DNA from: a virus
Reading direction: 5' to 3' (one strand)
Length of the DNA: 38,741 bases
IMG/VR virus record: IMGVR_UViG_3300036660_000027
Location: 1-38,741 of that record
Part shown: in pieces, positions 11,859 through 24,524 of the stretch
Numbering within the stretch: position 1 is the first letter of the stretch
Layout of the letters: each line of letters begins with the position of its first letter
The notes under the pieces: model-generated
What the model was told of the DNA's origin: nothing
Seen by the model: only the letters and a program-made list of their open reading frames with translations
Database searches by the model: none
Made by a program: the position numbers and the translations under genes

Positions 11859-12157
11859 GCTGCCTTCACCCGATAGCCAAGCCACTTCTCGGATTCCGCC
11901 GTCATGCCGTGTTTTTCCAGCATAGGGCGCATGCGGCGAACAGCCTGCGAGATTGACACGCCAGTGCCATCCGGCCCGCCGTTCGGATCATTGGCCCAGA
12001 CCTGCCGCGCAATGTCGGCAGTGCGGACAAATGATCCGAAGTCAGCGGCAAGGGTGCGTAGAATTGCGGACTGGATCGGCGGCAGATTGCGCGCCACTAT
12101 TTCAGCCGGGGTTTGGGCGGCGGTTGTTTGGCCGCAGCATGGGCAATTCGTGATCAT
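11855..12157 (-). CDS. Winged-helix (OmpR/PhoB effector-like) DNA-binding protein with N-terminal CPCC
   Basis: 100 aa. ...ARQVWANDP...VSISQAVRRMRPMLEKHG...LGYRV follows the trans_reg_C pattern (VW ... I.RLR.KL ... GY.L). Confidence 0.6.
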   Translation of the reverse strand: MITNCPCCGQTTAAQTPAEIVARNLPPIQSAILRTLAADFGSFVRTADIARQVWANDPNGGPDGTGVSISQAVRRMRPMLEKHGMTAESEKWLGYRVKAA

Positions 12158-12777
12158 GCGGCTTCCTGCATATAGCGGGCGCGCAAGGCCAAAACCTTAG
12201 CGTCCAACTCTCCGAGAAATTTCACCGTCTCGGCTTCGATGTTCTGGATTGCCGCATCGTCACGCTGCACGCGCTTAACCCACATTTGCAGATCGGCCGG
12301 CAGGCGCGGGTCAAAGCTGACAAAATCGCACCACGCGCGCCCGGTGCAGGCCATTTGAACCTGCATCTGCGTCACGTATTTCCCCGGCACCACTTCGCCC
12401 AAAAGCGTCTCGATATGGGTGGCGGTGTTGGGGCATTTGATTTCGATCAGCCCGTCATCCCCGATCAGCCCATCCGGGGAAGCGCCGAACATGGCGATTG
12501 AGGGGTGATCCACCAACCCAACCTCTTGCACCCGGGCGTCGGTGATGAACTCGTAGGCAGATCGCGCGTGCGGCTCTACATCGGTTCCCCATTGCATCGC
12601 TGCGCTGCTGAACCGCTCCGCCTGCTGCCCGGTCAGGCGCTCACAGATCAATTCGGCCAAGTAGTTGGCGCGGCTGGCGCTGTAGCCTGTCTTGGTAGTA
12701 GCCATGAGGTCAGCAACGCGTGACGCCGTGACCTTGCCCAGCCGGGCTGCAAACCATTCTTCTGAGCGCTGTTCCAT
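12154..12777 (-). CDS. YqaJ-type (lambda Exo-like) recombination exonuclease
   Basis: 207 aa. The N-terminal SEEWFAARLGKVTASRVADLM signature and PD-(D/E)XK-type core (IEIK) are present. It is adjacent to the annealase. Confidence 0.88.
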   Translation of the reverse strand: MEQRSEEWFAARLGKVTASRVADLMATTKTGYSASRANYLAELICERLTGQQAERFSSAAMQWGTDVEPHARSAYEFITDARVQEVGLVDHPSIAMFGASPDGLIGDDGLIEIKCPNTATHIETLLGEVVPGKYVTQMQVQMACTGRAWCDFVSFDPRLPADLQMWVKRVQRDDAAIQNIEAETVKFLGELDAKVLALRARYMQEAA

Positions 12778-13520
12778 TACACCACCGCCTTTGCTTTGAT
12801 TTTCTTGCGCAGGGCCGACACGGCGTCGGCGAACATGCGCTGCGGCAAAACTTCCAGCGATGTGACCTTGAGGTATTCGCAGAACTTCGCCTCATCGGCC
12901 CCGGATTCATCCATCAGGTTGCGAAGCTGAAAAAACTCGTCGGCGCTGATTGTCAGTGACTTGCCGGCCGCGCGCCCATCGTCGTCGGTGTCGTCGCCCA
13001 GAGACAGGCCAAGGATGGCTTGGGCGGTGTATCGCTGCCCATATGTCTGTGATGATCCGACCGCCTGCACAGCGTTCTTGCTGCCCGATATATCCTTGGG
13101 CAATTCCATGCTTGTCGTCTTAGAATGGCCCAGAACGTGCATCAATTCGGCGGTGACAATCACGCGATCCGGGTGGCTTTCGACGCCGAAGGACAGGGCC
13201 AAGCCATGCCGCGAAAGGACGGGCCGGGTGAGGTTTATAATGTCCTTGAGAAGCGCATAGGACTTGTTCTTGTCGCCCTTGCCGTTCAACGGGATCGACG
13301 GAAAGTCAGCAGATGCAGCGGCAAACGCACTTGCGAAGGCCATCTTTGCGGCCTCTGCCTGCAAGCGGTCGCGCATATCCATCATGCGCTCCAGCTTCTC
13401 AATCGATGCGCCGGGGTCCATTGCAACGCGCTCGATCATGGCGATCATGGGCGACACATCGGACTGCGGCTGGATGCTTACAATTTCGTTCACTTTGATT
13501 TCCTCTTGCTTGCCCATCAC
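12777..13520 (-). CDS. ERF-family single-strand annealing protein
   Basis: 247 aa. AVQAVGSSQTYGQRYTAQAILGLSLGDD matches the ERF core motif (G..TY.RRY.L..L.GI..DD) as I recall it. It is paired with the YqaJ exonuclease. Confidence 0.8.
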   Translation of the reverse strand: MMGKQEEIKVNEIVSIQPQSDVSPMIAMIERVAMDPGASIEKLERMMDMRDRLQAEAAKMAFASAFAAASADFPSIPLNGKGDKNKSYALLKDIINLTRPVLSRHGLALSFGVESHPDRVIVTAELMHVLGHSKTTSMELPKDISGSKNAVQAVGSSQTYGQRYTAQAILGLSLGDDTDDDGRAAGKSLTISADEFFQLRNLMDESGADEAKFCEYLKVTSLEVLPQRMFADAVSALRKKIKAKAVV

Positions 13521-14638
13521 ATGCTCACTTTCGTGTGGGGGATTTTTCCAGCCATCAGCGCCTCTGCGATGGCATCTGGCGTTGCAGCCCCAGCCATTGC
13601 CGCAAGGGCTGCGGAAATATCGGACTTGATCCGGGCCCGGTGGGCCTGATCGGCTTCACGCTGTGCGCGCGCGTCTGCTTCAGCCTGCACCTCTGCCGCA
13701 ATTCTGTCGCGCTCGGCTTGCGCGGCCCGCTCCGTTGCCGCCAGCGCCTCGGCCAGTTCATCGGCGTGACGCTTGGCGGTTTCAGCCTCACGGTCAGCGG
13801 CATCTTTAGCGGCTTGATCTGCATCCGCCTTAGCTTTGGCCTCTGCGGCTTCCTGTGCCTGTTTCGCCGCCGCTAGTTTGTCAGCCTCGATCTGAGCCAG
13901 TCGCGCGGCGTCATGCACCGCAGCAACGCGGGCAGTCTCGGCGTCAATCTCTGCCTGCCGGACACGCACGGCCTCTGCTTCTGCGGCCTCGTTCGCCAAG
14001 CGGTCAGCTTCGTCCCTGACGGCTTTCTCAGCGCGCAAAGCCTCCAACTCCGCAGCCTGTGAAATGCGCAGATTTGCAGCGTCCAGATCGGCCTGCCATT
14101 TAGCCACACAATGGGCCAGCTTTTCATCAGCTTGGCTGGCGTACTCATCCCAAGCCCGCCCCGCATGAAAATCCTTGGCGCGGTCGATCATAGATTGAAT
14201 GAGGTCTGGCTCTGACATGGAGTCCACTCGGCCATCGTCAAACTTTTTAAGCCCGGTTTTGTGACCGTCGATGCGTACCTCTTCTTTATCTTCCCAATCA
14301 TCAGCGGGCTTTTTGACCTGATCGCGCAAGGTGGAAAGGAATGTGTCCGCCACATTTCGGCCCGCGTTCACCGATGCAACTTCTTTGCGCTGCGCCTCGG
14401 TCAATTCCTTGCCGCGCCGATCTATCTCGGCTTTTGACTGCGAAACCTTAAACGCAACCGACCGCATCAATTCTCGGTCCTTCTTGCTGGACGGGTTCAG
14501 GTCTTTGACCATGTCCAGCGCGTCAGCCCTGATCTTGTTCAGCAGCGGGTCGAGGCCATTCTCAGCCTTGAACATCGTCGCCAGCGTCGTCGGTTCTGGC
14601 AATGCCAGCGCCGTGGTTTGAGTTGAGCCGTCCATCAC
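13517..14638 (-). CDS. Coiled-coil protein of the recombination module (DUF1351-like?)
   Basis: 373 aa with a long A/E/R/Q-rich helical C-terminal half. The position upstream of the SSAP is typical. The family call is tentative. Confidence 0.6.
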   Translation of the reverse strand: MMDGSTQTTALALPEPTTLATMFKAENGLDPLLNKIRADALDMVKDLNPSSKKDRELMRSVAFKVSQSKAEIDRRGKELTEAQRKEVASVNAGRNVADTFLSTLRDQVKKPADDWEDKEEVRIDGHKTGLKKFDDGRVDSMSEPDLIQSMIDRAKDFHAGRAWDEYASQADEKLAHCVAKWQADLDAANLRISQAAELEALRAEKAVRDEADRLANEAAEAEAVRVRQAEIDAETARVAAVHDAARLAQIEADKLAAAKQAQEAAEAKAKADADQAAKDAADREAETAKRHADELAEALAATERAAQAERDRIAAEVQAEADARAQREADQAHRARIKSDISAALAAMAGAATPDAIAEALMAGKIPHTKVSM

Positions 14639-14934
14639 ATTGCTCCCATAAAATAATCAAACGCGGTGATGATCGCCACCACCACAGTTGTTGCCGCGAA
14701 CATCACCAGCCAAGCCGCGATGCCGTACATGTCGTCTGCGGCGTCAATCTCGCGCTGTGACAGGATCGGCGGCAGGCTGTCGGCTTTGAACGGCGCGGCC
14801 TCGGCCTCTGCTACCTCACGCTGCCGATCGGGGTCTTTCACCAGCGGCGCAAACACGCTGTTGCAGGCGGTGATTTTCTCGCGGCGGGCGTTGATCAGAT
14901 GCACAACGTCGCAGCAGTGCTGGGCGGCGGTCAT
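14635..14934 (-). CDS. Early protein with C-terminal TM anchor
   Basis: 99 aa. C-terminal hydrophobic helix IAAWLVMFAATTVVVAIITAF. It is the second gene of the leftward operon. Confidence 0.6.
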   Translation of the reverse strand: MTAAQHCCDVVHLINARREKITACNSVFAPLVKDPDRQREVAEAEAAPFKADSLPPILSQREIDAADDMYGIAAWLVMFAATTVVVAIITAFDYFMGAM

Positions 14935-15188
14935 TCTGCTGCCATCCGCATACCCAAGGACGATTCCGCGTCAATCAGCGCCACCGCTGCATCAACCGCC
15001 GCCGTGATCGACACGACGCCGAACAGGTACGGGCTTGGCATATCGAACCCACGGTCACGCAGCTGGGCAATGAAGTGATTGCGCTGCCCGAGGTGGTGGA
15101 TCTGCTCGGATGTGTTGCCGCGCGAAGCCCAGCCATCGGCGCAGTTCTGGTGGTAGCGGATGGAGGATGCGATCTCTGCGTTTGTCAT
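14931..15188 (-). CDS. First leftward early gene, hypothetical
   Basis: 85 aa with a GGAG SD 7 nt upstream of the ATG. It lies directly downstream of the P-L candidate. Confidence 0.65.
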   Translation of the reverse strand: MTNAEIASSIRYHQNCADGWASRGNTSEQIHHLGQRNHFIAQLRDRGFDMPSPYLFGVVSITAAVDAAVALIDAESSLGMRMAAE

Positions 15189-15223
15189 TGCGTGTCTCCC
15201 GTGGCGTGGTTGCCTATGGGGAG

Positions 15224-15252
15224 AATGTATCCGCTATTGAGGATACTGTAAA
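15224..15252 (-). promoter_or_regulatory. Leftward early promoter candidate (P-L): TTTACA-N17-TACATT
   Basis: Read on the minus strand, the -35 is at 15252..15247 and the -10 at 15229..15224. The whole spacer is occupied by operator 15227..15246. Confidence 0.55.
15227..15246. promoter_or_regulatory. Operator O-L1: GTATCCGCTATTGAGGATAC
   Basis: It has 6-bp inverted arms GTATCC/GGATAC around an 8-bp core and is one of four ATCC-N8-GGAT sites in the window. Confidence 0.6.
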
Positions 15253-15257
15253 GAGAT

Positions 15258-15277
15258 ATATCCGCTAAAGAGGATGA
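15258..15277. promoter_or_regulatory. Operator O-L2: ATATCCGCTAAAGAGGATGA
   Basis: Its central 16 nt are identical to site 17137..17152. Its centre lies 31 bp from O-L1. Confidence 0.6.
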
Positions 15278-15422
15278 ATATTTGCCACCACCCGAATCAC
15301 ATGGCATAACACCCCGGCACGATGGGCGCGGGTGGAGGGTGGCGCTATGGTGAAATTTCTGGAATTCTGCGGTAGGCGCGCCAGTCGGACGGGCGAAGAA
15401 ATGGCTTCACGACTCAGTTCGG

Positions 15423-16079
15423 TTGATACATGCTCGCCGAATGTGGTGGTTTATCAAGCATGTTTGGAAAACCGTAATTTTCGGGTCTGCTCTGCTCGGG
15501 TTGTATTATCTTCCGGCAGATTTGGAGGGTTTGTCAGCAGCATCCGGGCCTTGGAAGAAGTTTTTTGCCATGGTCAGTAGTGACGGAGTCGTGTGGTTGG
15601 CTGCGGGGGCGGTTTTCTTCTGGCTTGCGTGGACGGAACTGCGACAGATGATAAAGGACCGCCGTACCTTAGCAAGACAGCCGGATCAAACCATGTGGGG
15701 CATGAAAATGGTAGATGAAAAGCCGTCGAATATTAATCAATCCATTAACATCAACTCTATGAGCGGCGGAAGTGTGTCACCAGTTTATCATAACTTCCAT
15801 ACTATAGTGGCTCCGGGGCGGGTTGAACTTTCGGATGAAGGCGTATCGGAGCTTGTAGAGGCTCTGCGCGGAAGGACCGTTAGCATTGACATCGTTGGAG
15901 ATCAGAAATCTTTCGCGATTGGCTATAGGCTTGTTGATCGCTTGGTAGGTTTGGGTGTCACTGCCCTTAGGCCAACTACTTGCTCCCTAATGCCTGGCGT
16001 TAATGACCCCTACACACTACACCTTTCGCAAGACGGAAAAACTGCACATCTCGTTATCAGTCCGGCCACCCTGCCGTAA
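15423..16079 (+). CDS. Membrane protein of unknown family (2 N-terminal TM plus soluble C-domain), immunity-region moron
   Basis: The track ORF (218 aa) starts at TTG; ATG 15441 is an alternative. TM helices are WWFIKHVWKTVIFGSALLGLYYL and VVWLAAGAVFFWLAW. The gene is AT-richer than its flanks. I recognised no family. Confidence 0.65.
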   Translation: MIHARRMWWFIKHVWKTVIFGSALLGLYYLPADLEGLSAASGPWKKFFAMVSSDGVVWLAAGAVFFWLAWTELRQMIKDRRTLARQPDQTMWGMKMVDEKPSNINQSININSMSGGSVSPVYHNFHTIVAPGRVELSDEGVSELVEALRGRTVSIDIVGDQKSFAIGYRLVDRLVGLGVTALRPTTCSLMPGVNDPYTLHLSQDGKTAHLVISPATLP

Positions 16080-16143
16080 CCGTTTATAAGCCTTTACGGC
16101 GGTCAGGGCGGCACGCTTAGCAGCGGGAGTCATTATTTCCCCC

Positions 16144-16527
16144 TTAGTTGCAGTCAAAGGTGGGCGGCTCGTAGGAGGTCACTGTATAGCTTTTGCGGGG
16201 ATTCTTCTGCGCGTAGAGCGTGTAGAAGCACGTTTGGTTGAACACCCCGCCTCCGTGAACCTGCGTCGTCGTCATGCCGCTATAAGTGGCATAGTTTCCG
16301 GTACCGTAGAGGTTGCCAGTTGTGGATGATGTAGCATAGGTGGGCATGGAAAAGGACTGATCCATGCGCCACTGAAACGCTGTTCTGCCATCTGGCATTT
16401 TCATCACGTTTACAGGCGGTCCATACTTAACTTGGATTTCTGAAATGTCTTTTCCAACCATTTCATTCATCACTTGAGTTGCGCACCCGGCGAGTGCAAG
16501 TGCGGCAAATACAACAAAATTTTTCAA
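16144..16527 (-). CDS. Lipoprotein, SmpA/OmlA(BamE)-like, immunity-region moron
   Basis: TTG 16527 is preceded by a GGAGGA SD 5 nt upstream. This gives (M)KNFVVFAALALAGC with a canonical lipobox, 127 aa. The track's ATG 16590 would add 21 aa before the signal peptide. Confidence 0.7.
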   Translation of the reverse strand: MKNFVVFAALALAGCATQVMNEMVGKDISEIQVKYGPPVNVMKMPDGRTAFQWRMDQSFSMPTYATSSTTGNLYGTGNYATYSGMTTTQVHGGGVFNQTCFYTLYAQKNPRKSYTVTSYEPPTFDCN

Positions 16528-16740
16528 TAAATCCTCCGTAGGGTTTGATACAGATATAATCTCGATTCGATCTATGGCTGGCGTTTCCAACCTGCTTTAG
16601 CCGATCCCGTTAACCATATCGCTAGGCGTAGTGGCTTGCGTTGTTCCCGTAATGTTCACATAGTCGTGTTGCATTCAGGGGGAGTGTCATGACGGTTTCG
16701 GGGTTTGTCGGTTTACTGAGTAGCTTTTCATCTCATCAAA

Positions 16741-16759
16741 TCTGCCAAAAGCTGGCAGA
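16741..16759 (-). terminator. Hairpin just downstream of the repressor gene
   Basis: TCTGCCA / TGGCAGA is a 7-bp stem with a 5-nt loop, 12 nt after the repressor stop. On the minus strand it is followed by TTTGAT. Confidence 0.45.
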
Positions 16760-16770
16760 AATTCGCGTTC

Positions 16771-17076
16771 TCATTTTGCTTGAAGAAGCTGGAGGATCGC
16801 CTCGCGCCGCGCCGGATTCTGTTCCAATAATCGCAGAACCTCCGCCGTATCGTCGCTAATTTCGAACCCGTGGGTGACATATGACAGGCTGATCTTAGAA
16901 AACGCACAGACTGCCATCAGGCTTTCAATGCTGGGGTCTTTGCCTTCCGTCAGCCATGAATGAACCGCGCCGGGGCCAAGCCCGCCACCTAAGCTGGCCG
17001 CACGTTTCGATATTCCCTTGTCTGCGAGGGATGATTCAAGACGCGCGCGCCATGCGCCTGATGCTTCGTTTGACAT
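16771..17076 (-). CDS. CI-like repressor, Cro/C1-type HTH, 101 aa, no S24 peptidase domain
   Basis: The internal ATG 17076 of the 257-aa track ORF gives a protein with the HTH ISKRAASLGGGLGPGAVHSWLTEGKDPSIESLMAVCAFSKISLSYVTHG. It is divergent from the Cro-like gene, with operators in between. The upstream part of the track ORF reads as noncoding. Confidence 0.8.
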   Translation of the reverse strand: MSNEASGAWRARLESSLADKGISKRAASLGGGLGPGAVHSWLTEGKDPSIESLMAVCAFSKISLSYVTHGFEISDDTAEVLRLLEQNPARREAILQLLQAK

Positions 17077-17111
17077 GGTTGCATTATCAAAAAAATCTGC
17101 GCCGCCTGCAC

Positions 17112-17127
17112 GTCCTCTATAATGGAT
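17112..17127. promoter_or_regulatory. Operator O-R2-like: GTCC-TCTATAAT-GGAT (inverted orientation, degenerate)
   Basis: Its reverse complement CATCCATTATAGAGGAC matches the ATCC..TA.AGAGGA. core of the other three sites. Its centre is 25 bp from the 17135..17154 site. Confidence 0.45.
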
Positions 17128-17129
17128 GG

Positions 17130-17157
17130 TTGACGTATCCGCTAAAGAGGATATATT
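17130..17157 (+). promoter_or_regulatory. Rightward early promoter candidate (P-R): TTGACG-N16-TATATT
   Basis: The -35 is at 17130-17135 and the -10 at 17152-17157. The A of the Cro-like ATG (17164) is 7 nt after the -10, implying a leaderless transcript. Confidence 0.55.
17135..17154. promoter_or_regulatory. Operator O-R1-like: GTATCCGCTAAAGAGGATAT
   Basis: It matches the two O-L sites and fills the spacer of the rightward promoter. Confidence 0.6.
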
Positions 17158-17163
17158 GCGGGT

Positions 17164-17385
17164 ATGGAAAACATTCACCACCCTGAACTCCTGTCTGAAA
17201 TTGAGGCATTTCTTGCCGAAAGCGGCATGGGCGAAACATATCTGGGTAAGGCGGCTGTCGGGAATTCCGAGGTCGTTGCCCGCATCCGCAAGGGGCGACG
17301 CGTTTGGCCGGAAACGGCAGATGGCCTGCGTTCGTTCATCGCGGAACGCAAGCGCGGAACTAAAAGCGAAGGGATGCAAGCATGA
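17164..17385 (+). CDS. Cro-like small regulator
   Basis: 73 aa, divergent from the repressor. The pattern ...ETYLGKAAVGNSEVVARIRKGRRVWPETADGLRSFI resembles small alphaproteobacterial prophage DNA-binding proteins I recall. Confidence 0.7.
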   Translation: MENIHHPELLSEIEAFLAESGMGETYLGKAAVGNSEVVARIRKGRRVWPETADGLRSFIAERKRGTKSEGMQA

Positions 17386-17398
17386 CGGCCTGCATCCC
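17371..17398 (+). terminator. Hairpin spanning the Cro-like stop codon (tR1-like attenuator candidate)
   Basis: GGGATGCA / TGCATCCC is an 8-bp stem with a 12-nt loop, followed by the pyrimidine/T-rich TCGTTCCTTTCC. Confidence 0.35.
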
Positions 17399-17462
17399 TC
17401 GTTCCTTTCCTGCTGCTTCCAATGTTGCTCACGGCTCATGTGATCAACATAGGAGCGAACAG

Positions 17463-17717
17463 ATGAGAAAGTCCGCCGGAAAGTATTCCGCCAAAAAATC
17501 AGCATATGCCTACCGCCAGTTTTTCGCGGCGCGGTGGTCAACATTCATCCGTGACAACTTCGACAGCCCGGAACATGCCGCCATGGTTTTTGGCGTTGAT
17601 GGCTCCACGGCGCGGAAGTGGTTTGATGGCAACCACGCCCCCAGCGGCTTTGTTGTTGGTATGGCGTTTGACTTCCTGCCGGATGCCGCCCGCGCTGAAT
17701 TGCGGGTGTCAGAATGA
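17463..17717 (+). CDS. HTH regulator (CII-position)
   Basis: ATG 17463 has an AGGAG SD 7 nt upstream. 84 aa. HTH-like segment AAMVFGVDGSTARKWFDGNHAPSG. The track's earlier start at 17382 has low third-position GC (hand count). Confidence 0.65.
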   Translation: MRKSAGKYSAKKSAYAYRQFFAARWSTFIRDNFDSPEHAAMVFGVDGSTARKWFDGNHAPSGFVVGMAFDFLPDAARAELRVSE

Positions 17718-17854
17718 GGCGGATTCTACGCGCCGTCTACATCTTCGAGGCAATCACAGCAAACCGCATCGGTGCGCTGTGCGACCAATGGGCGGCTAAC
17801 GCTGCCCAGCGGCTTGGAAAACTTTCCGCGCACTTTCGCAGATCGGGGTCTTGA
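17714..17854 (+). CDS. 46-aa mini-ORF (below the track cutoff)
   Basis: The ATG overlaps the upstream TGA (ATGA). My hand translation gives MRRILRAVYIFEAITANRIGALCDQWAANAAQRLGKLSAHFRRSGS. Confidence 0.4.
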   Translation: MRRILRAVYIFEAITANRIGALCDQWAANAAQRLGKLSAHFRRSGS

Positions 17855-18127
17855 AATGGACGCCACCGCTATTAGCCCCCATCCCCACACCGCTGGCGAC
17901 TCCTCCCCGCTAGCGGCTAACCCGCGCGTTTGTTCCCTCGGGCGCGCGGCACTCCCCTCGGCTGCTGTGCTTGCGCGGGCCGGGGGATTTTCCCCCATTC
18001 TGCACAACGCAGGATCATCGCGCGGTGTCGCCGATGCAACCGATGCCCCAGCGGGCGTTTTCGACGGTCTACCCCAGACGGCTCCCGGCGTGCGTGCGCT
18101 ACACGAACAAACCGGGGGCCGCACATA

Positions 18128-18310
18128 ATGGACGCCGCAGAAATCGCGTTGAAGCTGAGCGACATCGCCCGCCTGTCAGCAGATGAGTTGCGCGGCTGGC
18201 ATCGCTGGGTCTGCGTTCGCGTCAACCGCCCTGAGTTTGACGGTGAACGGGCGGCGCTGCTGTCGCGTGCGCGCCAGCTTGGCATCGCATTGAATGAGGT
18301 TCCGGCATGA
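18128..18310 (+). CDS. Hypothetical small protein
   Basis: An internal ATG of track ORF 17930..18310. 60 aa (MDAAEIALKLSDIARLSADELRGWHRWV...). The N-terminal extension in the track is Arg/Cys-rich and not protein-like. Confidence 0.55.
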   Translation: MDAAEIALKLSDIARLSADELRGWHRWVCVRVNRPEFDGERAALLSRARQLGIALNEVPA

Positions 18311-18507
18311 ATGTTATCGCCCAACTCGCCCGCGTCAAAGCCGTATTCCAGCAGCGCACCATCACGGCATTCGTCAGCCAGCCGCCTGTAGATCGGCTTG
18401 ATGTGCAAATCGCAACGCGCGCCTTGCGGGTCCACAACCGCAGCGAACCCGGCGCGGAATTGTACCGGGGCAAGCACGCCATCCTGAAAGAAGGGCTGCG
18501 CAAGTAA
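18307..18507 (+). CDS. Hypothetical small protein
   Basis: 66 aa with ATGA overlap to the upstream stop. Third-position GC is high in this frame. The 198-aa minus-strand ORF is its antisense shadow. Confidence 0.55.
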   Translation: MNVIAQLARVKAVFQQRTITAFVSQPPVDRLDVQIATRALRVHNRSEPGAELYRGKHAILKEGLRK

Positions 18508-18548
18508 GCGCAACCTAAAGATGTTTGAAATTATTTCGGGGGCTAAAG

Positions 18549-18815
18549 ATGGACGGATCGAAAATCAATACTGACGGCGCATATAGCGTCACCGCCGATC
18601 AGCTTCGCGCCTTTATCGAGCGCATTGAATTCGTGCGCGCAGAACAGGCGGAATCGAAAGAGCGCGAGAAGGAGATTTTCGCCGAGATGAAGGGCGCGGG
18701 CTACATGACGCGCCCGGTGCGCACGATCATCAAGCTGCGGGCGCAGAACCCCGATGATCGCGCCGAAGAAGCGGCGGTTTTGGAAATGTATAAATCTGCG
18801 TTGGGCATGTCCTAA
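18549..18815 (+). CDS. GapR / DUF2312-like DNA-binding protein
   Basis: 88 aa from ATG 18549. DQLRAFIERIEFVRAEQAESKEREKEIFAEMKGAGYMTRPVRTIIKLRAQNPDDRAEEAAVLEMYKSALGM follows the DUF2312/GapR pattern closely (recalled). Confidence 0.8.
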   Translation: MDGSKINTDGAYSVTADQLRAFIERIEFVRAEQAESKEREKEIFAEMKGAGYMTRPVRTIIKLRAQNPDDRAEEAAVLEMYKSALGMS

Positions 18816-19114
18816 TGAGGCGCATCGCAGCCAGTGACGGCAACCAGCCTGAGATAGTCGCAGCCCTTCGCGCCGTGGGTGCCAGCGTAGCGACCTGCCA
18901 AGCGGTCGGTAAGGGCTTCCCTGACCTCGTAGTGGGGTATCAGGGGCGCAATTACATGATCGAGGTGAAAGACCCCTCACAGCCTAAGCACCGCCATGAG
19001 TTGACGCCTGCGCAAGTGGTGTTTCACGGCGGCTGGTGTGGCGATCTGGTGAAGGTGTTCACCGCCAAGGAAGCGCTTATTCACATTGGCGCGCTGCGGG
19101 GCCAGATCACATGA
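18815..19114 (+). CDS. PD-(D/E)XK nuclease (VRR-NUC / resolvase-like)
   Basis: 99 aa. GFPDLVVG ... YMIEVK gives the PD...(E)xK motif. The ATG overlaps the upstream TAA. Confidence 0.65.
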   Translation: MRRIAASDGNQPEIVAALRAVGASVATCQAVGKGFPDLVVGYQGRNYMIEVKDPSQPKHRHELTPAQVVFHGGWCGDLVKVFTAKEALIHIGALRGQIT

Positions 19115-19407
19115 ACGCCCTGACGCCCGAAGAATTTGCCGCGATCCGCACCCACCCGATGCTGCGCACCCGCGATGAATTCCGCGCGATTGTGGATGCG
19201 GTTTGCGCTGAGTTTGGCATCGACGCAGCGGCCATATCAGCGCCGTCACGGGGCGTTGCCCCCGTCGAGACAGCCCGCAAGGTCATATGCCTGACGGCTT
19301 CGCAGCGCGGGTTTCTGACGATCAACATCGCCCGCATGATACGCCGCGATAAAAGCACCGTCCGCAAATCCATTGCCCGATCACTCAATGCGATGGGTGC
19401 GAAATGA
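19111..19407 (+). CDS. DnaA domain IV-like HTH protein
   Basis: ATG 19111 overlaps the upstream stop (ATGA). 98 aa. SRGVAPVETARKVICLTASQRGFLTINIARMIRRDKSTVRKSI parallels the DnaA C-terminal DNA-binding domain (R.R.V..AR...MYL....S...IG..F.RDHTTV). Confidence 0.65.
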   Translation: MNALTPEEFAAIRTHPMLRTRDEFRAIVDAVCAEFGIDAAAISAPSRGVAPVETARKVICLTASQRGFLTINIARMIRRDKSTVRKSIARSLNAMGAK

Positions 19408-19913
19408 GCAAAGGTTTCGTATACATTTTGAGCAACCCATCAATGCCGGGTATCGTCAAGATTGGGAAAACCACCCGTTCCGTCGAGCAGCGTGTGGTGG
19501 AGCTATACCAGACGGGCGTGCCTACGCCATTTGTCGTCGTGTCGTCGTTCCTGACGCCTGACTGCCATGACCTTGAGGCCATCGCCCATGCGCATCTCGG
19601 TCAATCCCGCCTGACCGGGGGGCGTGAGTTTTTCGCGCTTTCGCCAGAGGAAGCAGACAGCCATGTTCGCGCGCTTCATGTCGATCAAATCGCAGAATTT
19701 ATGGCCGAATACTTGCCCGATCACAGCGTCATCCATTCCGATGATGTCATGGACCGAAATTGCATTGTGGGTCCTGAAGATGTGTGGCGGATCGCCAAGG
19801 AAATAGGTGAGCGCGATTTCGATGTGGCCCGCGCCTTTGCGACCGCCGCACCCGATGAAGCTTCCGCAATCGTAAATCGGTGGCGGAAGGAAGTGGAGGC
19901 ACTCATAAATTGA
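19404..19913 (+). CDS. T5orf172 (GIY-YIG superfamily) domain protein
   Basis: 169 aa. GFVYILSNPSMPGIVKIGKTTRSVEQRVVELYQTGVPTPF ... REFF is the T5orf172/MUG113 pattern. Confidence 0.75.
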   Translation: MSKGFVYILSNPSMPGIVKIGKTTRSVEQRVVELYQTGVPTPFVVVSSFLTPDCHDLEAIAHAHLGQSRLTGGREFFALSPEEADSHVRALHVDQIAEFMAEYLPDHSVIHSDDVMDRNCIVGPEDVWRIAKEIGERDFDVARAFATAAPDEASAIVNRWRKEVEALIN

Positions 19914-20797
19914 GCGGTTGGATCGCCATATCACGCGACCTGTTCGAGCATGATTTCTTTGCGCGCGAACCCATGTCCGAGCGTGAGGCTTGGGTGTGGA
20001 TGCTCGCTAAGGCGGCATGGAAAGACACCACCCATCGCATCGGCGGCGTGGTTGTCGATGTGCCGCGTGGATCGTTCTTCTGCACCCTGCGCGAACTGCA
20101 ATCCGCATGGGGCTGGGCCTCTGACAAGCGCGTCAGAACCTTCCTGAAGCGGACGCAAGACGGACGCATGGCGGACGCAACGGCAGCACATGGAAAGACG
20201 CAGATAACCATATGTAATTACGACGAATATCAGCATGACGGACGCAGCTCGGACTCAAGCGGGACGCAAGACCGGACGCAAAACGGACGCACAAAAGAAA
20301 CACTTAACACTAAACAAGAAATAAAAGAGGAGGTAGGGACGCCCGCGCCCGACCATTCTCAGCACTTCGCGGATTTCTGGGAAGCATACCCCCACCGCAA
20401 CGGGCAGAAGAAAAACCGCAAGGGCGCAGAGTCCGCATTTTCCAAAGCCATCGCTGCCGGGGCGGACGTCCGCGACATATCGCAGGGGGTCACGGCAATG
20501 CAGCGAGCGCCCGATGTTCAGCGCGGCTTTGCCCGCGACCCTACCACATGGCTGAACCAGCAAGGCTGGACCGACGAAATCCCCGAGCAAACCGATTTCA
20601 AGAATGGACGCACCCATGACAACCGCACTCAGAACAACTTCGGAAGCACCTCGGGACGCGGCAACAGGCCTGACCCTGCCCTTGAGCAAATCGCTCGACT
20701 CACGGGCCTTAGCTCAGCATCAGGCGATGATCGCGTTCGAGTTGGAGGTTTTGGCGAAAAAGACGGACCGCTTTGGATGGGAACGCGACCGCAATAG
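19910..20797 (+). CDS. Replication initiator / replisome organiser (lambda O-like role)
   Basis: TTG 19910 overlaps the upstream TGA and gives (M)SGWIAISRDLFEHDFF, an N-terminus typical of phage replication proteins. The C-domain has FADFWEAYPHRNGQKKNRKGAESAF. The iteron array lies in the linker. The track start is GTG 19880. Confidence 0.75.
   Translation: MSGWIAISRDLFEHDFFAREPMSEREAWVWMLAKAAWKDTTHRIGGVVVDVPRGSFFCTLRELQSAWGWASDKRVRTFLKRTQDGRMADATAAHGKTQITICNYDEYQHDGRSSDSSGTQDRTQNGRTKETLNTKQEIKEEVGTPAPDHSQHFADFWEAYPHRNGQKKNRKGAESAFSKAIAAGADVRDISQGVTAMQRAPDVQRGFARDPTTWLNQQGWTDEIPEQTDFKNGRTHDNRTQNNFGSTSGRGNRPDPALEQIARLTGLSSASGDDRVRVGGFGEKDGPLWMGTRPQ
20150..20335. repeat. Candidate origin: iteron array (CGGACGCA, six perfect copies plus GGGACGCA and AGACGCA variants) followed by an AT-rich tract
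   Basis: Perfect CGGACGCA copies start at 20150, 20161, 20172, 20239, 20273 and 20284. GGGACGCA is at 20261 and AGACGCA at 20196. The AT-rich run 20291-20328 has about 8 G/C in 38 nt (hand count). Confidence 0.65.
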
Positions 20798-21110
20798 CCC
20801 GGCCCATGATCGGCTGGTGATGGACTGGATCGCCGCGCTTCAGGATTTCACGCTGGATGAAGTCCGCGCCGCCTGCAAAGCCGCCGTTCTGGCCGATCCG
20901 AAGAACATGCCGAACGAGGGGCATATTGTCGCCAAGATCATGGCCGCACGGGCGCAATTCGTGGCGTCTCACAAGCGCCTCGCCCCGCCGCCAGTGGATG
21001 CCCGCCCGATGGACGTTGGTGATGCTGAGCGCGCCCGCCGTGCTGCGCTGGCTGCGGAATTGCTGGGATCGGCCAAGCCCTTCCCCGCCACCGGGGAGGC
21101 TGCACAATGA
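20727..21110 (+). CDS. Hypothetical replication-module protein (start uncertain)
   Basis: The track ORF is open from 20604 (168 aa). Third-position GC switches in favour of this frame only around 20727 (hand count), so ATG 20727 (127 aa) is my best guess. It overlaps the initiator 3' end. Confidence 0.55.
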   Translation: MIAFELEVLAKKTDRFGWERDRNSPAHDRLVMDWIAALQDFTLDEVRAACKAAVLADPKNMPNEGHIVAKIMAARAQFVASHKRLAPPPVDARPMDVGDAERARRAALAAELLGSAKPFPATGEAAQ

Positions 21111-21352
21111 GCGCTCAATCCATCCGCTACTGGCTGGCAGACCTGATCGCCGGGGGCGCTCTGACGCGGGCAAAAGCCGATAATGCAATGTGGTTTGAGG
21201 TATCTGCGCAGTTGGGCGCTAAGTTCGTGCTGGCGGGTGAGGCGCACGCCGATGAGGTTGATCGGCTGCGCTCAGAACGCGACATTCTCATCATCGACAA
21301 CACCGCAGCGCTATCAGCCGCGCAATATAAAGCGGCTGGGGTGATCAAATGA
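21107..21352 (+). CDS. Hypothetical protein
   Basis: Track ORF of 81 aa with ATGA overlaps on both sides. Confidence 0.6.
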   Translation: MSAQSIRYWLADLIAGGALTRAKADNAMWFEVSAQLGAKFVLAGEAHADEVDRLRSERDILIIDNTAALSAAQYKAAGVIK

Positions 21353-21780
21353 CGCCCCCCACACCGATGCACGCCTACCAATCCATCACCACCGCCCGCG
21401 TGATGCCCCCAGCAGCCCCAACGCGGCCCGCTGCGTATGCAACTCGCATGGCCCAGCACATCGCACTAGGCAAAACACCAGCGCAGGCTATGGCCGCGAT
21501 AGAGCGCGCGGATGGGCATATGGGGCGCGTGCCACCAAAAGCACAGCCCGGAAACTCGGGCATTCGGAAAACCCCGCGCCCCAACAGCGCCGCGCTAACC
21601 GCAGATCGCATCATGCCGCACCTCACCCACGAATGGCAGCCCCTCTCCCCAGCGCTGTGTGGTGCCATAGGCGTCCGCCATGAAACGATCCGCATGGCAA
21701 TCAAGGCCCTCGTCGCGGCTGGCAAAGTGGAGTGCAAGCGCGGCAACGGCAGAACCCCGTCAATGTGGAGGCTAGCATGA
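21349..21780 (+). CDS. Hypothetical protein with C-terminal winged-helix-like segment
   Basis: 143 aa. The C-terminus HETIRMAIKALVAAGKVECKRGNGRTPSMWRL resembles MarR/wHTH recognition helix plus wing. Confidence 0.6.
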   Translation: MTPPTPMHAYQSITTARVMPPAAPTRPAAYATRMAQHIALGKTPAQAMAAIERADGHMGRVPPKAQPGNSGIRKTPRPNSAALTADRIMPHLTHEWQPLSPALCGAIGVRHETIRMAIKALVAAGKVECKRGNGRTPSMWRLA

Positions 21781-22178
21781 CCTGCCAACAGCGCGCTCGC
21801 AAAGGCGCATCTATGGAACTGGTCCACGCCTGTTACGATGGCGTCAAGACTGCGCAGGAAATCGCGCTAGAGCTAAACTTCAGCAGCGCCTATGTGCGCG
21901 CCACGATCAACCGCCTTGGCCTGCCCATAGTCCGCCCCAAAGGCTTATCGCGCCGTGCGGAATACTTCGCCGCAGCCGCCGCTGGAATGACGCACGAGGA
22001 AGCCGCCGCACACCTTGGCGTCACGCACGCCGGAGTGCGCAGTATGGCGACAGCCCACGGCATTACCTTCCGCTCAAAACTGCAACACAGCGCGCCACCT
22101 AAGCCGATCAAGGTTGCCCCGGTAAAGATTTCCGCATCCCCCGAAGCCATCCGCCGATACCTGGAGAGGGCCAAATGA
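21777..22178 (+). CDS. Double-HTH protein (possible late-gene regulator)
   Basis: ATG 21777 overlaps the upstream stop. 133 aa. Two HTH-like segments: TAQEIALELNFSSAYVRATINRLG and THEEAAAHLGVTHAGVRSMATAHG. Confidence 0.6.
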   Translation: MTCQQRARKGASMELVHACYDGVKTAQEIALELNFSSAYVRATINRLGLPIVRPKGLSRRAEYFAAAAAGMTHEEAAAHLGVTHAGVRSMATAHGITFRSKLQHSAPPKPIKVAPVKISASPEAIRRYLERAK

Positions 22179-22381
22179 ACGCGCAACCCGTCCGCCGCCT
22201 TGGCATCGATTACCCATCGCAATCAGCCCTAGCGCGCGCCTTGGGCGTATCTCACCAGACAATCGCATTCCACCTTAACAATGGGTCGCTTGATCGCGCC
22301 GGGGTTCGGGATGGCAAGCGCGTGCATCAGCGCAAGCGAAAGCCCGTCACGATGCCGCAAATGCCAAACAGCCAACGATAA
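22175..22381 (+). CDS. Small HTH protein
   Basis: 68 aa. SQSALARALGVSHQTIAFHLNNG is followed by a basic tail. Confidence 0.6.
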   Translation: MNAQPVRRLGIDYPSQSALARALGVSHQTIAFHLNNGSLDRAGVRDGKRVHQRKRKPVTMPQMPNSQR

Positions 22382-22399
22382 CAAACGAGGGGCAGGGAT

Positions 22400-22531
22400 A
22401 TGAACGCCATGATCGAGAAGCCCACCAAGGCCCGCAGCAAGCGCCAGCGCATCGACCGCAAGCAGCACAGGTCACACACGAACAGTAATAAAATGGGCAA
22501 TTCGGAAAGGACGGATTACGTAATGACGTGA
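22400..22531 (+). CDS. 43-aa basic mini-ORF (tentative)
   Basis: My hand translation gives MNAMIEKPTKARSKRQRIDRKQHRSHTNSNKMGNSERTDYVMT. The first two thirds are GC3-rich. It is below the track cutoff. Confidence 0.3.
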   Translation: MNAMIEKPTKARSKRQRIDRKQHRSHTNSNKMGNSERTDYVMT

Positions 22532-22556
22532 CAAATTGCGCAATAAGTTATACATT
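22528..22556 (+). promoter_or_regulatory. Promoter candidate for the structural operon: GTGACA-N17-TACATT
   Basis: It sits in an AT-rich gap and has the same -10 hexamer as the P-L candidate. It is flanked by TTGCGCAA (22536) and TTGCGAAA (22557). Confidence 0.3.
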
Positions 22557-22583
22557 TTGCGAAATCTCACAAAAGGCCACACC

Positions 22584-22823
22584 ATGACCCTGATGACCGA
22601 TCCAGCCGCAGTTCTACAGGCGATCACACCGTCTGACACCACCAACATCGGGCCCGCGCGGGGCTTCATCATCGGCGTTGCGGGCACCGTTGCCGTGCAA
22701 ACCAAAGGCATGAGTGCGCCCGTCACCCTCACAGGTTTGGCAACCGGCATTGTCCATCCCATCAGCGCCCGGTTTATCTTCGCCACCGGAACAACCGCCA
22801 CCAGCATCGTCGCGGTGTATTGA
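22584..22823 (+). CDS. Small beta-rich structural protein, RcGTA head-spike-base (Rcc01079)-like
   Basis: ATG 22584 gives 79 aa. ITPSDTTNIGPARGFIIGVAGTVAV ... ATGTTATSIVAVY matches my recollection of the spike base protein family. The family call is tentative. Confidence 0.55.
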   Translation: MTLMTDPAAVLQAITPSDTTNIGPARGFIIGVAGTVAVQTKGMSAPVTLTGLATGIVHPISARFIFATGTTATSIVAVY

Positions 22824-22827
22824 GACC

Positions 22828-24514: not shown

Positions 24515-24524
24515 GGTATTAATC

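What the first reader, a model, noticed from the sequence alone, without database searches (positions are those of the whole stretch)
15278..16770. AT-rich two-gene moron (2-TM protein plus BamE-like lipoprotein) in the rexAB slot between O-L and the repressor
Two convergent genes lie between the leftward early promoter/operators (15224-15277) and the repressor gene (16771-17076). They belong to neither early operon. The first, 15423..16079 (+), has two N-terminal TM helices and a soluble domain of about 130 aa that I cannot assign to any family. The second, 16144..16527 (-), has a canonical lipobox LALAGC, a GGAGGA SD before a TTG start, and an SmpA/OmlA-like GKDISEIQVKYGPP segment. The block is visibly AT-richer than both flanks. 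A hairpin (16741-16759) separates it from the repressor transcript. Lambda carries rexAB in this slot, and other temperate phages place sie/cor/llp-type exclusion genes in comparable positions. These are prophage-expressed functions that protect the host. An envelope-located pair of unknown family here is the best candidate in the window for an undescribed superinfection-exclusion or abortive-infection module.
Basis: partly seen in the sequence, partly recalled or inferred. Interest (0 to 1): 0.72.

Follow-up and report, generated by a model that had tools for sequence, protein, structure and literature searches.

The report
Two unrelated accessory genes beside phage repressor
Between the left operator and the repressor of this temperate phage lie two real but unrelated add-on genes, and one of them, a small lipoprotein of an uncharacterised family seen only in Alphaproteobacteria, turns up just after unrelated repressor genes in six other phage loci, which makes it a good untested candidate for a lysogen-expressed envelope protein that blocks incoming phages.

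Summary
Both ORFs are real and conserved elsewhere, and they lie between confirmed operators and a CI-like repressor in a region of lower GC.

The reading as an "envelope-located pair/module" does not hold. The two genes co-occur only in this phage. A second dataset carries a 100% identical copy. None of about 25 other loci carrying a relative of either gene has both.

**Lipoprotein (16527→16144, − strand).** It belongs to a family of at least 255 clusters; every member that carries an organism name is alphaproteobacterial. The family has no Pfam domain and matches PHROG 3716 (function unknown). In six other phage loci a homologue sits −4 to 313 bp downstream of the repressor, on the same strand. 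Those repressors are mostly unrelated to one another. That makes it a recurrent passenger of the repressor operon, as rexAB is in lambda. Its most likely role is superinfection exclusion or envelope conversion. No function was shown. BamE likeness is weak and seen only at fold level.

**2-TM protein (15441–16079, + strand).** It is a chimera of two modules that occur separately. A 2-TM N-module appears in about 27 proteins with unrelated C-termini. A C-domain of about 95 aa appears in about 10 proteins behind a different 2-TM anchor, once at a prophage end in Pararhodobacter. The C-domain is probably cytoplasmic. It matches nothing in Pfam, NCBIfam, PADLOC or PDB.

Verdict: two independent morons of new families in a known type of slot. 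Interest is moderate.

The parts
15224..15276 (-). Left operator/promoter: two 18-bp operator copies (15228-15245, 15259-15276) overlapping a -35 TTTACA / -10 TACATT promoter-like site that points leftward.
   Evidence: Three copies occur in the window against 0.03 expected by chance.
15396..15440 (+). Conserved leader of about 45 nt upstream of the 2-TM gene. DNA homology to the only full-length relative (L001) starts here and ends at the stop codon, so the gene travels as a cassette with its leader.
15441..16079 (+). 2-TM protein gene, 212 aa. Residues 1-80 form the 2-TM N-module (FWKxI..LGLYYLPADL..PW..W.E.R). Residues 80-113 are a low-confidence linker that carries the conserved NQSxNI..GGxVSPVY motif. 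Residues 119-206 form an alpha/beta domain (pLDDT about 90) that ends in ISPATLP.
16063..16112 (.). Imperfect GC-rich hairpin between the two convergent genes. It is a possible bidirectional transcription stop but has no U-run.
   Evidence: on the - strand, dG -36.5 kcal/mol, z -2.7.
16144..16527 (-). Lipoprotein gene, 127-aa precursor. Signal peptide MKNFVVFAALALAG, lipid-modified Cys15, invariant Cys100 and Cys126, conserved GPP / DG..AFQW / CFYTLY motifs, and a variable Thr/Ser/Gly/Tyr-rich central segment (residues 59-98).
16532..16537 (-). Shine-Dalgarno GGAGGA, 4 nt upstream of the TTG start of the lipoprotein gene.
   Evidence: Read directly from the sequence.
16741..16759 (-). Stem-loop with a 7-bp stem, 11 nt after the repressor stop codon. 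No U-tract follows. At most it is a weak attenuator.
   Evidence: dG about -12 kcal/mol, z -1.4. The terminator scan did not report it.
16771..17076 (-). CI-like repressor gene, 101 aa, HTH. It lies upstream of the lipoprotein gene on the same strand.
17113..17157 (+). Right operator/promoter: a perfect operator (17136-17153), a degenerate site (17113-17127), and a -35 TTGACG / -10 TATATT promoter-like site that points rightward.
17164..17385 (+). Cro-like first gene of the rightward operon, 73 aa.
   Evidence: PHROG transcriptional regulator, E 0.0037 (weak).

Best explanation
The 1.5-kb stretch between the left operator and the repressor is a variable accessory-gene slot. It holds two independently acquired morons, not a module.

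**(1) The lipoprotein.** It is exported and lipid-anchored at Cys15, and Cys100 and Cys126 probably form a disulfide. It has a conserved N-terminal helix-helix-strand subdomain and a conserved C-terminal strand. Between them lies a Thr/Ser/Gly/Tyr-rich hairpin that varies in sequence and length. The gene sits downstream of the repressor gene on the same strand and is most likely transcribed with it in lysogens, as rexAB is with cI in lambda. From its position, its cell compartment and its recurrence, its most likely job is to alter or occupy an envelope component so that incoming phages cannot adsorb or eject DNA (superinfection exclusion). The variable hairpin would then set specificity.

**(2) The 2-TM protein.** It is an inner-membrane hairpin with both ends in the cytoplasm, carrying a cytoplasmic alpha/beta domain of unknown fold. 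It has its own leader and is transcribed away from the left early operon. It is a shuffled product of two mobile modules. Its role is unknown; a single-gene, membrane-anchored exclusion or abortive-infection function is only a guess.

**Shown:** gene reality, family membership, modularity, genomic linkage, composition.
**Inferred:** co-transcription, cell compartments, disulfide, and every functional statement.
For: **Lipoprotein**
- It has 14 close homologues. A profile search finds at least 255 clusters with no Pfam domain, all named 'hypothetical' or 'lipoprotein'; every organism named is alphaproteobacterial.
- 13 of 14 members hit PHROG 3716, function unknown.
- The lipobox Cys, C100 and C126 are invariant in 20 sequences.
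- A homologue lies directly 3' of a repressor, on the same strand, in L003, L004, L006, L016, L017 and L021. The gaps run from -4 to 313 bp.
- The lipoproteins of these seven loci are 30-77% identical to one another. Most pairs of their repressors give no BLASTP hit. Window against L004 is the clearest case: lipoproteins 77% identical, repressors no hit.
- In the window, no sigma-70-like promoter and no convincing terminator lies between the repressor and the lipoprotein gene.
- The central segment is the most variable part: 26-50 aa long, entropy 1.87 bits against 1.37 for the N-terminal subdomain.
- Other copies sit on the opposite strand among tail genes (L019, L031). E. coli mEpimmI phages also carry their exclusion lipoproteins within the structural gene cluster (PMC11893012).
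- Precedent for a lysogeny-module exclusion lipoprotein: Ltp of phage TP-J34 (PMC3952083).

**2-TM protein**
- An exhaustive HMMER search gives 38 hits that split into an N-module set and a C-domain set.
- A C-domain homologue is the last gene of a Pararhodobacter zhoushanensis prophage. It lies beside the lysis and tail-fibre genes, on the opposite strand.
- GC3 is 0.52 against 0.63-0.76 in the flanking early genes.
- Homology to L001 starts about 45 nt before the ATG and ends at the stop codon.

**Independence of the two genes**
- Only L002, a 100% identical copy of the window, carries both.
Against: - There are no expression or phenotype data of any kind.
- The gap between the repressor and the lipoprotein gene is 243 bp here and contains a small hairpin, so separate regulation is possible.
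- About half of the lipoprotein contexts are not next to a repressor. L005 lies between ychF and a ParD-like gene. L032 (Ensifer) lies upstream of a two-component system with the same GC3 as its neighbours. L033 is chromosomal. The family is therefore not exclusively phage-borne and may have a housekeeping envelope role that phages borrowed.
- There is no sequence similarity to any proven exclusion protein. The Cor PHROG scores E 0.044, and only over the signal peptide.
- The AF2 model is only moderate (pLDDT 74.6, and 58-68 in the central part).
- For the 2-TM protein, N-module relatives sit in ordinary chromosomal neighbourhoods (L025), none was found in viral contigs, and there is no PADLOC hit. 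Nothing ties it to defence except its position in two prophages.
Confidence: 0.55

Rival explanations
1. One reading: the 2-TM protein and the lipoprotein work together as one two-component envelope module for exclusion or abortive infection. This would be the lambda RexA/RexB logic carried out by new proteins.
For: The two genes are adjacent in the slot between the left operator and the repressor, in two datasets (window and L002). Both are lower in GC than the early operons. Both are predicted membrane or envelope proteins.
Against: - L002 is 100% identical over 12.9 kb, so it is the same phage and not an independent occurrence.
- None of about 19 other lipoprotein loci carries a relative of the 2-TM protein. 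None of about 13 loci of the 2-TM family carries the lipoprotein.
- In L003, L004 and L006 the position beyond the lipoprotein gene is filled by unrelated genes.
- The two genes are convergent and so lie on separate transcripts.
- The predicted topology puts the globular domain of the 2-TM protein in the cytoplasm and the lipoprotein in the periplasm.
Confidence: 0.07
2. The lipoprotein is a lysogenic-conversion or host-fitness factor that has nothing to do with phage exclusion. It might modulate outer-membrane biogenesis or envelope-stress signalling, or give Bor-like resistance to external stresses. Phages would have borrowed it from a cellular alphaproteobacterial envelope family.
For: - Many family members are chromosomal genes in Ensifer, Mesorhizobium, Bradyrhizobium and Paracoccus.
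- The Ensifer copy has the same GC3 as its neighbours and lies directly upstream of an OmpR-type two-component system (L032).
- There is weak fold resemblance to BamE and to phage lipoproteins annotated as SmpA/OmlA.
Against: - The phage-linked clade (38-77% identity) is distinct from the chromosomal clade (25-35%). The phage-linked proteins have a Thr/Ser/Gly/Tyr-rich variable insert that the Ensifer protein lacks.
- Its two recurrent placements, behind repressors and on the opposite strand among tail genes, are the classic positions of exclusion genes (PMC3952083, PMC11893012).
- There is no sequence match to BamE, Bor or any Pfam family.
Confidence: 0.25
3. The lipoprotein acts mainly during the phage's own lytic cycle. 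It might mask the receptor on lysing cells so that progeny are not lost on debris (as T5 Llp does), or it might take part in lysis. In that case its position behind the repressor would be incidental.
For: Some homologues lie within virion-structural or terminase regions (L018, L019, L031). The idea that phage lipoproteins protect progeny rests on what I recall of T5 Llp.
Against: - In the window and six other loci the gene is on the repressor strand, outside both lytic operons.
- In L019 and L031 it is antisense to the tail genes, so it is not in the late operon.
- At 113 mature residues and away from any lysis cassette, it does not look like an o-spanin.
Confidence: 0.1

Closest known systems
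Lambda rexA-rexB (and sieB-type genes) in the immunity region
   Same: An accessory gene lies immediately downstream of the repressor on the same strand. It is outside both early lytic operons and is presumably expressed in lysogens.
   Different: There is no sequence or architectural similarity (no Pfam hit). Only one gene, a lipoprotein, is linked to the repressor here. It is periplasmic, not a cytoplasmic sensor paired with a multi-pass membrane channel. The neighbouring 2-TM gene is on the other strand and is not a conserved partner.
Ltp of Streptococcus thermophilus phage TP-J34 (exclusion lipoprotein in the lysogeny module)
   Same: Ltp is a lipoprotein encoded in the lysogeny module and is regarded as a moron. 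[quoted passage not shown] This is the closest functional precedent for the proposed role.
   Different: The host is Gram-positive. The fold is unrelated (Ltp has repeat domains that bind the tape-measure protein). No sequence similarity was detected. No function has been tested here.
Cor (phi80/N15/HK022), T5 Llp, and the mEpimmI Lpp exclusion lipoproteins of E. coli phages
   Same: These are small lipoproteins of Gram-negative phages that exclude phages using a given outer-membrane receptor. The mEpimmI Lpp genes lie within the structural gene cluster (PMC11893012), as the copies in L019 and L031 do.
   Different: The only sequence signal is Cor PHROG 1119 at E 0.044, confined to the signal peptide. 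The protein here is larger (113 mature residues), has a conserved Cys pair, and has a low-complexity variable hairpin. The family was seen only in Alphaproteobacteria.
BamE / SmpA_OmlA lipoproteins (PF04355)
   Same: It has an N-terminal lipobox. The predicted start is helix-helix-strand, with a G-x-x-x-x-(V/I)-x-x-x-(Y/L)-G-P-P-like motif. Foldseek lists BamE chains (probability 0.63-0.72, TM 0.31-0.41) and phage lipoproteins annotated as SmpA/OmlA (probability 0.90-0.99).
   Different: There is no Pfam hit at E<=1. hhalign against E. coli BamE aligns only the lipobox, at 1% probability. All Foldseek E-values for these hits are 0.19 or worse. The C-terminal two thirds (extra strands, Cys pair, variable hairpin) has no counterpart in BamE.
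PHROG 3716 (phage protein family of unknown function)
   Same: 13 of 14 family members match, with a best E of 2e-9. The window protein matches at 1.9e-5.
   Different: The PHROG has no annotation, so it names the family but explains nothing. tblastn finds no homologue in 50,697 GenBank phage records.

Membership tests
SmpA_OmlA / BamE (PF04355) | Significant sequence match to the family profile or to BamE itself | tested here: not met
   No Pfam family at E<=1. hhalign of A1 against E. coli BamE (sequence recalled from memory) gives probability 1.1% and aligns only the lipobox.
SmpA_OmlA / BamE (PF04355) | Alpha-alpha-beta-beta-beta fold | tested here: inconclusive
   The AF2 model (pLDDT 74.6) starts H15-23, H28-35, then strands. 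Foldseek gives BamE 5d0q_E at E 0.35, probability 0.72, TM 0.31/0.40. BFVD phage lipoproteins annotated as SmpA/OmlA score probability 0.90-0.99 at E 0.19-0.47.
SmpA_OmlA / BamE (PF04355) | N-terminal lipobox lipoprotein | tested here: met
   LALAGC with an invariant Cys15.
Cor / Llp-type outer-membrane exclusion lipoproteins | Sequence membership (PHROG 1119, Cor) | tested here: not met
   E 0.044 over residues 1-50 only, which is the signal peptide region.
Cor / Llp-type outer-membrane exclusion lipoproteins | Blocks a specific outer-membrane receptor and excludes phages that use it | not testable with these tools
   This needs plating-efficiency and adsorption assays in the (unknown) alphaproteobacterial host.
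Ltp-type lysogeny-module exclusion lipoproteins | Lipoprotein gene located in the lysogeny/immunity module | tested here: met
   In the window it lies 243 bp downstream of the repressor on the same strand. The same arrangement occurs in six other loci.
Ltp-type lysogeny-module exclusion lipoproteins | Homology to the Ltp repeat domains | tested here: not met
   No Pfam, NCBIfam or PDB sequence match.
Ltp-type lysogeny-module exclusion lipoproteins | Transcribed in the prophage state | not testable with these tools
   Only indirect evidence is available: no promoter or convincing terminator between the repressor and the gene, and gaps of -4 to 13 bp in L006, L017 and L021.
Lambda RexAB | Two co-transcribed genes downstream of cI that act as a sensor plus a membrane channel | tested here: not met
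   Only the lipoprotein gene is on the repressor strand. The 2-TM gene is convergent with it and is never linked to it elsewhere. No Pfam or PADLOC match.
PHROG 3716 | Profile match | tested here: met
   Window protein E 1.9e-5; 13 of 14 homologues match, best 2.1e-9.
Moron (independent accessory unit in a prophage) | Composition differs from the surrounding phage genes | tested here: met
   GC 0.45-0.53 against 0.58-0.66. GC3 0.52 and 0.58 against 0.63-0.76. The repressor and the cro-like gene are also lowish.
Moron (independent accessory unit in a prophage) | Present or absent among otherwise related phages, or found in unrelated contexts | tested here: met
   L003 has a 55%-identical repressor and the lipoprotein but no 2-TM gene. 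Homologues of the lipoprotein and of the 2-TM protein occur in unrelated phage and chromosomal contexts.
Moron (independent accessory unit in a prophage) | Own promoter and terminator | tested here: inconclusive
   No sigma-70-like promoter was found for either gene. The 2-TM gene has a conserved 45-nt leader. A hairpin without a U-run lies between the convergent genes.
CcmD, 'heme exporter protein D' (the JGI name for the 2-TM protein) | Match to the CcmD family | tested here: not met
   No Pfam or NCBIfam hit at E<=1. The protein is 212 aa with a globular domain. The name is most likely an artefact of the TM helix.
Known anti-phage defence proteins (PADLOC-DB v2) | Profile match of either protein or of 2-TM family members | tested here: not met
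   The only hit is a meaningless REase_II match at E 0.034. The other nine proteins give nothing.

The most novel reading that the evidence does not exclude
The lipoprotein family is a previously unrecognised superinfection-exclusion system of alphaproteobacterial temperate phages. Phages would have recruited it repeatedly into the repressor operon and into tail-gene clusters, and its hypervariable Thr/Ser/Gly/Tyr-rich hairpin would determine which receptor or incoming phage is blocked. Separately, the 2-TM protein would represent a new modular class of single-gene, membrane-anchored phage-conflict proteins in which membrane anchors and cytoplasmic domains are shuffled.
Probability: 0.3. Interest if true: 0.6.

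Novelty: new member of a known kind. Interest (0 to 1): 0.4.

Why it matters
Almost nothing is known about how prophages of Alphaproteobacteria (rhizobia, Paracoccus, roseobacters) protect their hosts from other phages.

An uncharacterised lipoprotein family that keeps appearing directly behind unrelated repressor genes is a concrete candidate that one gene can test. If it proves to be an exclusion factor, its variable hairpin would offer a way to study receptor specificity. The family could also be used to annotate immunity regions in metagenomic phages.

The work also corrects the picture of a two-gene module. Experiments should test each gene alone. The 2-TM protein should be treated as a separate orphan built from shuffled modules.

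Tried and rejected
**Family assignment**
- Pfam, NCBIfam, PHROGs and PADLOC scans of both proteins gave nothing except PHROG 3716 for the lipoprotein.
- Profile searches of PDB sequences gave only noise, with E of 0.14 or worse.
- Foldseek against PDB gave nothing better than E 0.23 for either model.
- BamE membership was rejected at sequence level.
- The JGI name 'heme exporter protein D' was rejected.
- Rfam found nothing in 14900-17600.

**Searches for relatives in annotated records**
- tblastn of both proteins against 50,697 GenBank phages found no match.
- The 2-TM protein has no match in plasmids.
- DNA similarity of the region to known phages is limited to a 166-bp weak hit to Agrobacterium phage Atu_ph08, inside the next gene.

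**Context searches that failed or gave little**
- The search for related loci failed on alignments that were too divergent.
- The N-module pattern found no viral contig and only one metagenome contig.
- The plasmid records carried no annotation, so I called ORFs myself.
- The listing of cluster members gave no host information.

**Other ideas dropped**
- I tested whether the small ORF antisense to the 3' end of the 2-TM gene is related to the DUF6471 genes that overlap N-module genes elsewhere. It is not.
- I tested whether the 98-aa 2-TM gene next to the lipoprotein in L019 is related to the window's 2-TM protein. It is not (E 0.17).
- Literature searches for a lipoprotein 'downstream of the repressor', and for SmpA or BamE phage exclusion proteins, found nothing specific.
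Full report
**1. What is in the sequence**

The window is a temperate phage.
- It carries an integrase (5434-6507), an ERF/YqaJ recombination pair in the leftward operon, a GapR-like gene and a large terminase.
- It resembles no sequenced phage at the DNA level. Its terminase is below 40% identical to any GenBank phage.

- An 18-bp near-palindrome, TATCCGCTAAAGAGGATA, occurs three times: 15228-45, 15259-76 and 17136-53. Only 0.03 copies are expected by chance.
- A degenerate fourth site lies at 17113-27.
- Sigma-70-like hexamers overlap the operators, pointing leftward at 15252-15224 and rightward at 17130-17157.
- The gene at 16771-17076 (-) is a short HTH protein. It gives weak hits to PHROG repressor families. 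It is 55% identical to an HTH_3 protein at the same position in a related metagenomic phage, L003.

Two ORFs lie between the left operator and this repressor.

**2. The lipoprotein (16527→16144, - strand)**

*The gene.* The TTG start, the GGAGGA 4 nt upstream and the lipobox LALAGC are all there. An independent gene call on a second dataset gives the same 127-aa protein (P0003).

*The family.*
- The first search found 14 homologues.
- A profile search found at least 255 clusters. None has a Pfam domain and all are named 'hypothetical' or 'lipoprotein'. Every organism named is alphaproteobacterial: Paracoccus, Ruegeria, Ensifer, Mesorhizobium, Bradyrhizobium, Novosphingobium.
- Thirteen of 14 members match PHROG 3716, whose function is unknown.
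- Across 20 sequences the lipobox Cys, Cys100 and Cys126 are invariant, as are the G36-P38 turn, A50 and W53. Two invariant cysteines in an exported protein suggest a disulfide. This is an inference.

*The model.* The AF2 model is moderate (pLDDT 74.6). It shows two short helices followed by a beta-sheet. Confidence is low in residues 60-100. That central segment is the most variable part of the family:
- It is 26-50 residues long.
- Its entropy is 1.87 bits, against 1.37 for the N-terminal part.
- In the phage-linked members it is 57-80% Ser/Thr/Gly/Tyr/Asn/Ala/Gln. In the chromosomal Ensifer homologue it is charged instead.

*The BamE question.* The 'BamE-like' label is not supported by sequence.
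- There is no Pfam hit at E<=1.
- hhalign against E. coli BamE aligns only the lipobox.
- Foldseek lists BamE and phage lipoproteins annotated as SmpA/OmlA, with fair probabilities but non-significant E-values and TM of 0.3-0.58.

I therefore rate the resemblance as inconclusive and limited to the first 45 or so mature residues.

**3. The decisive context result**

In the window the lipoprotein gene lies 243 bp downstream of the repressor on the same strand.
- The scan finds no promoter-like site in the gap.
- The hairpin at 16741-59 has a 7-bp stem, no U-run, and a z-score of -1.4.

In six other phage loci a homologue sits in the same place:

| Locus | Repressor type |
|---|---|
| L003 | HTH_3, 105 aa |
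| L004 | HTH_3, 78 aa |
| L006 | Peptidase_S24, 222 aa |
| L016 | HTH_3, 137 aa |
| L017 | distant relative of the L021 repressor |
| L021 | HTH_3 + S24, 244 aa |

- The gaps are 313, 88, 10, 173, 13 and -4 bp.
- The lipoproteins of these seven loci are 30-77% identical to one another.
- Most pairs of their repressors give no BLASTP hit. Window against L004 is the clearest case: lipoproteins 77% identical, repressors undetectably related.

So this is not one inherited block. It is a gene that has repeatedly ended up, or been kept, in the repressor operon. [quoted passage not shown]

Other copies sit elsewhere:
- On the opposite strand among tail genes (L019, and L031 in Paracoccus denitrificans). 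E. coli mEpimmI phages also keep their experimentally verified exclusion lipoproteins within the structural gene cluster (PMC11893012).
- In chromosomal settings: L005 next to ychF, L032 upstream of an Ensifer two-component system with matching GC3, and L033.

The family is therefore cellular as well as viral. That keeps open a role in envelope fitness or signalling that has nothing to do with exclusion.

**4. The 2-TM protein (15441-16079, + strand)**

*Start and rarity.* Homologues fix the start at ATG 15441. In the 5.8-billion-protein index it has one relative, P0002 at 55% identity. P0002 lies on a 1.8-kb contig beside a GGDEF-type gene.

*Modularity.* The exhaustive HMMER search gave 38 hits that split cleanly into two sets.
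- Residues 1-80 form a conserved 2-TM module (FWKxI..LGLYYLPADL..PW..AMxDQ..LW..W.D.RP). It is found in about 27 proteins whose C-termini are unrelated to each other.
- Residues 86-212 (NQSxNIGTMTGGxVSPVYNNF..VAPGR.ELS..IVGD..PPPSxPY..ISPATLP) are found in about 10 proteins behind a different 2-TM anchor.

*Structure and topology.*
- AF2 gives a membrane hairpin, a low-confidence linker (80-113) and a compact alpha/beta domain with pLDDT of about 90.
- Nothing in PDB resembles that domain (E of 0.24 or worse).
- No Pfam, NCBIfam or PADLOC model matches.
- The charge distribution (N-tail +2, loop net -1, after TM2 +5/-3) suggests that both ends, and so the globular domain, face the cytoplasm. 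This is an inference.

*Contexts.*
- One C-domain homologue is the terminal gene of a Pararhodobacter zhoushanensis prophage. It lies on the opposite strand from the adjacent lysis and tail-fibre genes, with chromosomal TRAP-transporter genes on its other side. That is a classic moron position.
- N-module relatives lie in ordinary chromosomal neighbourhoods (L025) or next to IS1595 and DUF6471 genes (L014, L030).
- No N-module relative was found in viral contigs.
- DNA homology between the window and L001 begins about 45 nt before the ATG and stops at the stop codon. The gene therefore moves as a cassette with its leader.

**5. Pair or not**

tblastn of both proteins against all 33 fetched loci shows that they co-occur only in L002. 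L002 is 100% identical to window 13614-26527, so it is the same phage.
- In L003, L004 and L006 the position beyond the lipoprotein gene holds unrelated genes.
- The two genes are convergent, separated by a GC-rich hairpin.
- Their soluble parts are predicted to lie on opposite sides of the inner membrane.

I conclude that these are two independent morons sharing a variable slot.

**6. Composition**

The block is lower in GC (0.45-0.53) than the flanks (0.58-0.66). GC3 is 0.52 and 0.58 against 0.63-0.76 for the early genes. The repressor and the cro-like gene are also lowish at 0.57. The contrast is real but not confined to the two morons.

**7. Mechanism and confidence**

I commit to the following.
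- The lipoprotein is made in lysogens from the repressor transcript, exported and lipidated. It acts in the envelope to prevent superinfection by blocking a receptor or the ejection of DNA. The variable hairpin sets its specificity.
- I put about 0.5-0.55 on this, about 0.25 on a non-defence envelope or fitness role, and about 0.1 on a role in the lytic cycle.
- For the 2-TM protein I can offer only a low-confidence guess: a single-gene, membrane-anchored exclusion or abortive-infection function.

**8. Novelty and interest**

The kind of thing, a moron in the immunity region, is well known. The two protein families are uncharacterised. The recurrent linkage of the lipoprotein to unrelated repressors is a new and testable observation. 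Interest is moderate (0.4). It would rise if exclusion were demonstrated.

Noticed in passing
window 15401-15580 (+): An alternative-frame ORF of 59 aa starts at an ATG exactly where DNA homology to L001 begins. It is open in both sequences and ends at the same place in both. It may be a chance product of DNA conservation or an overlapping leader peptide.
   Followed up: partly
window 16017-16133 (-): A 38-aa ORF has a strong AGGGGGAAATA-ATG ribosome-binding site immediately after the lipoprotein stop codon. It is antisense to the 3' end of the 2-TM gene. It is unrelated to DUF6471, and L004 has no room for it.
   Followed up: partly
window 18525-18815 (+); also L003 1654-1884: A phage-encoded GapR-like DNA-binding protein (PF10073, E 1.5e-22) lies in the rightward early operon. 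GapR is an alphaproteobacterial nucleoid protein, which fits an alphaproteobacterial host.
   Followed up: no
L014 772-978, L015 646-852, L030 782-1006: Small DUF6471 genes (68-74 aa) are convergent with, and overlap, the 3' ends of three genes of the 2-TM N-module family. This may be a conserved two-gene arrangement in that branch of the family.
   Followed up: partly
window 17369-17400 (-): A terminator-like hairpin with a 13-bp stem followed by CGCTTTTAGT lies on the minus strand, at the junction of the cro-like gene and the next gene. It would stop leftward transcription heading toward the repressor.
   Followed up: no
window 17077-17092 (-): A -10-like GATAAT lies about 6 nt upstream of the repressor ATG (17076), with no Shine-Dalgarno. 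This suggests a leaderless repressor mRNA, as lambda cI has from its maintenance promoter.
   Followed up: no
L032 5965-7086 (Ensifer adhaerens NZ_CP121309.1): A chromosomal homologue of the lipoprotein (30% identity, GC3 equal to its neighbours) lies directly upstream of an OmpR-type response regulator and a histidine kinase, on the same strand. This hints at a cellular envelope-signalling role for the ancestral family.
   Followed up: partly
window 12154-13520 (-): An ERF-family annealing protein (12777-13520) and a YqaJ-type exonuclease (12154-12777) form a recombination pair in the leftward early operon.
   Followed up: no
L003 4251-4724 (+): In the related phage L003, the position beyond the lipoprotein gene holds a different predicted membrane protein (weak DUF2335 hit, E 0.002). 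This fits the idea of a variable slot for membrane proteins.
   Followed up: no
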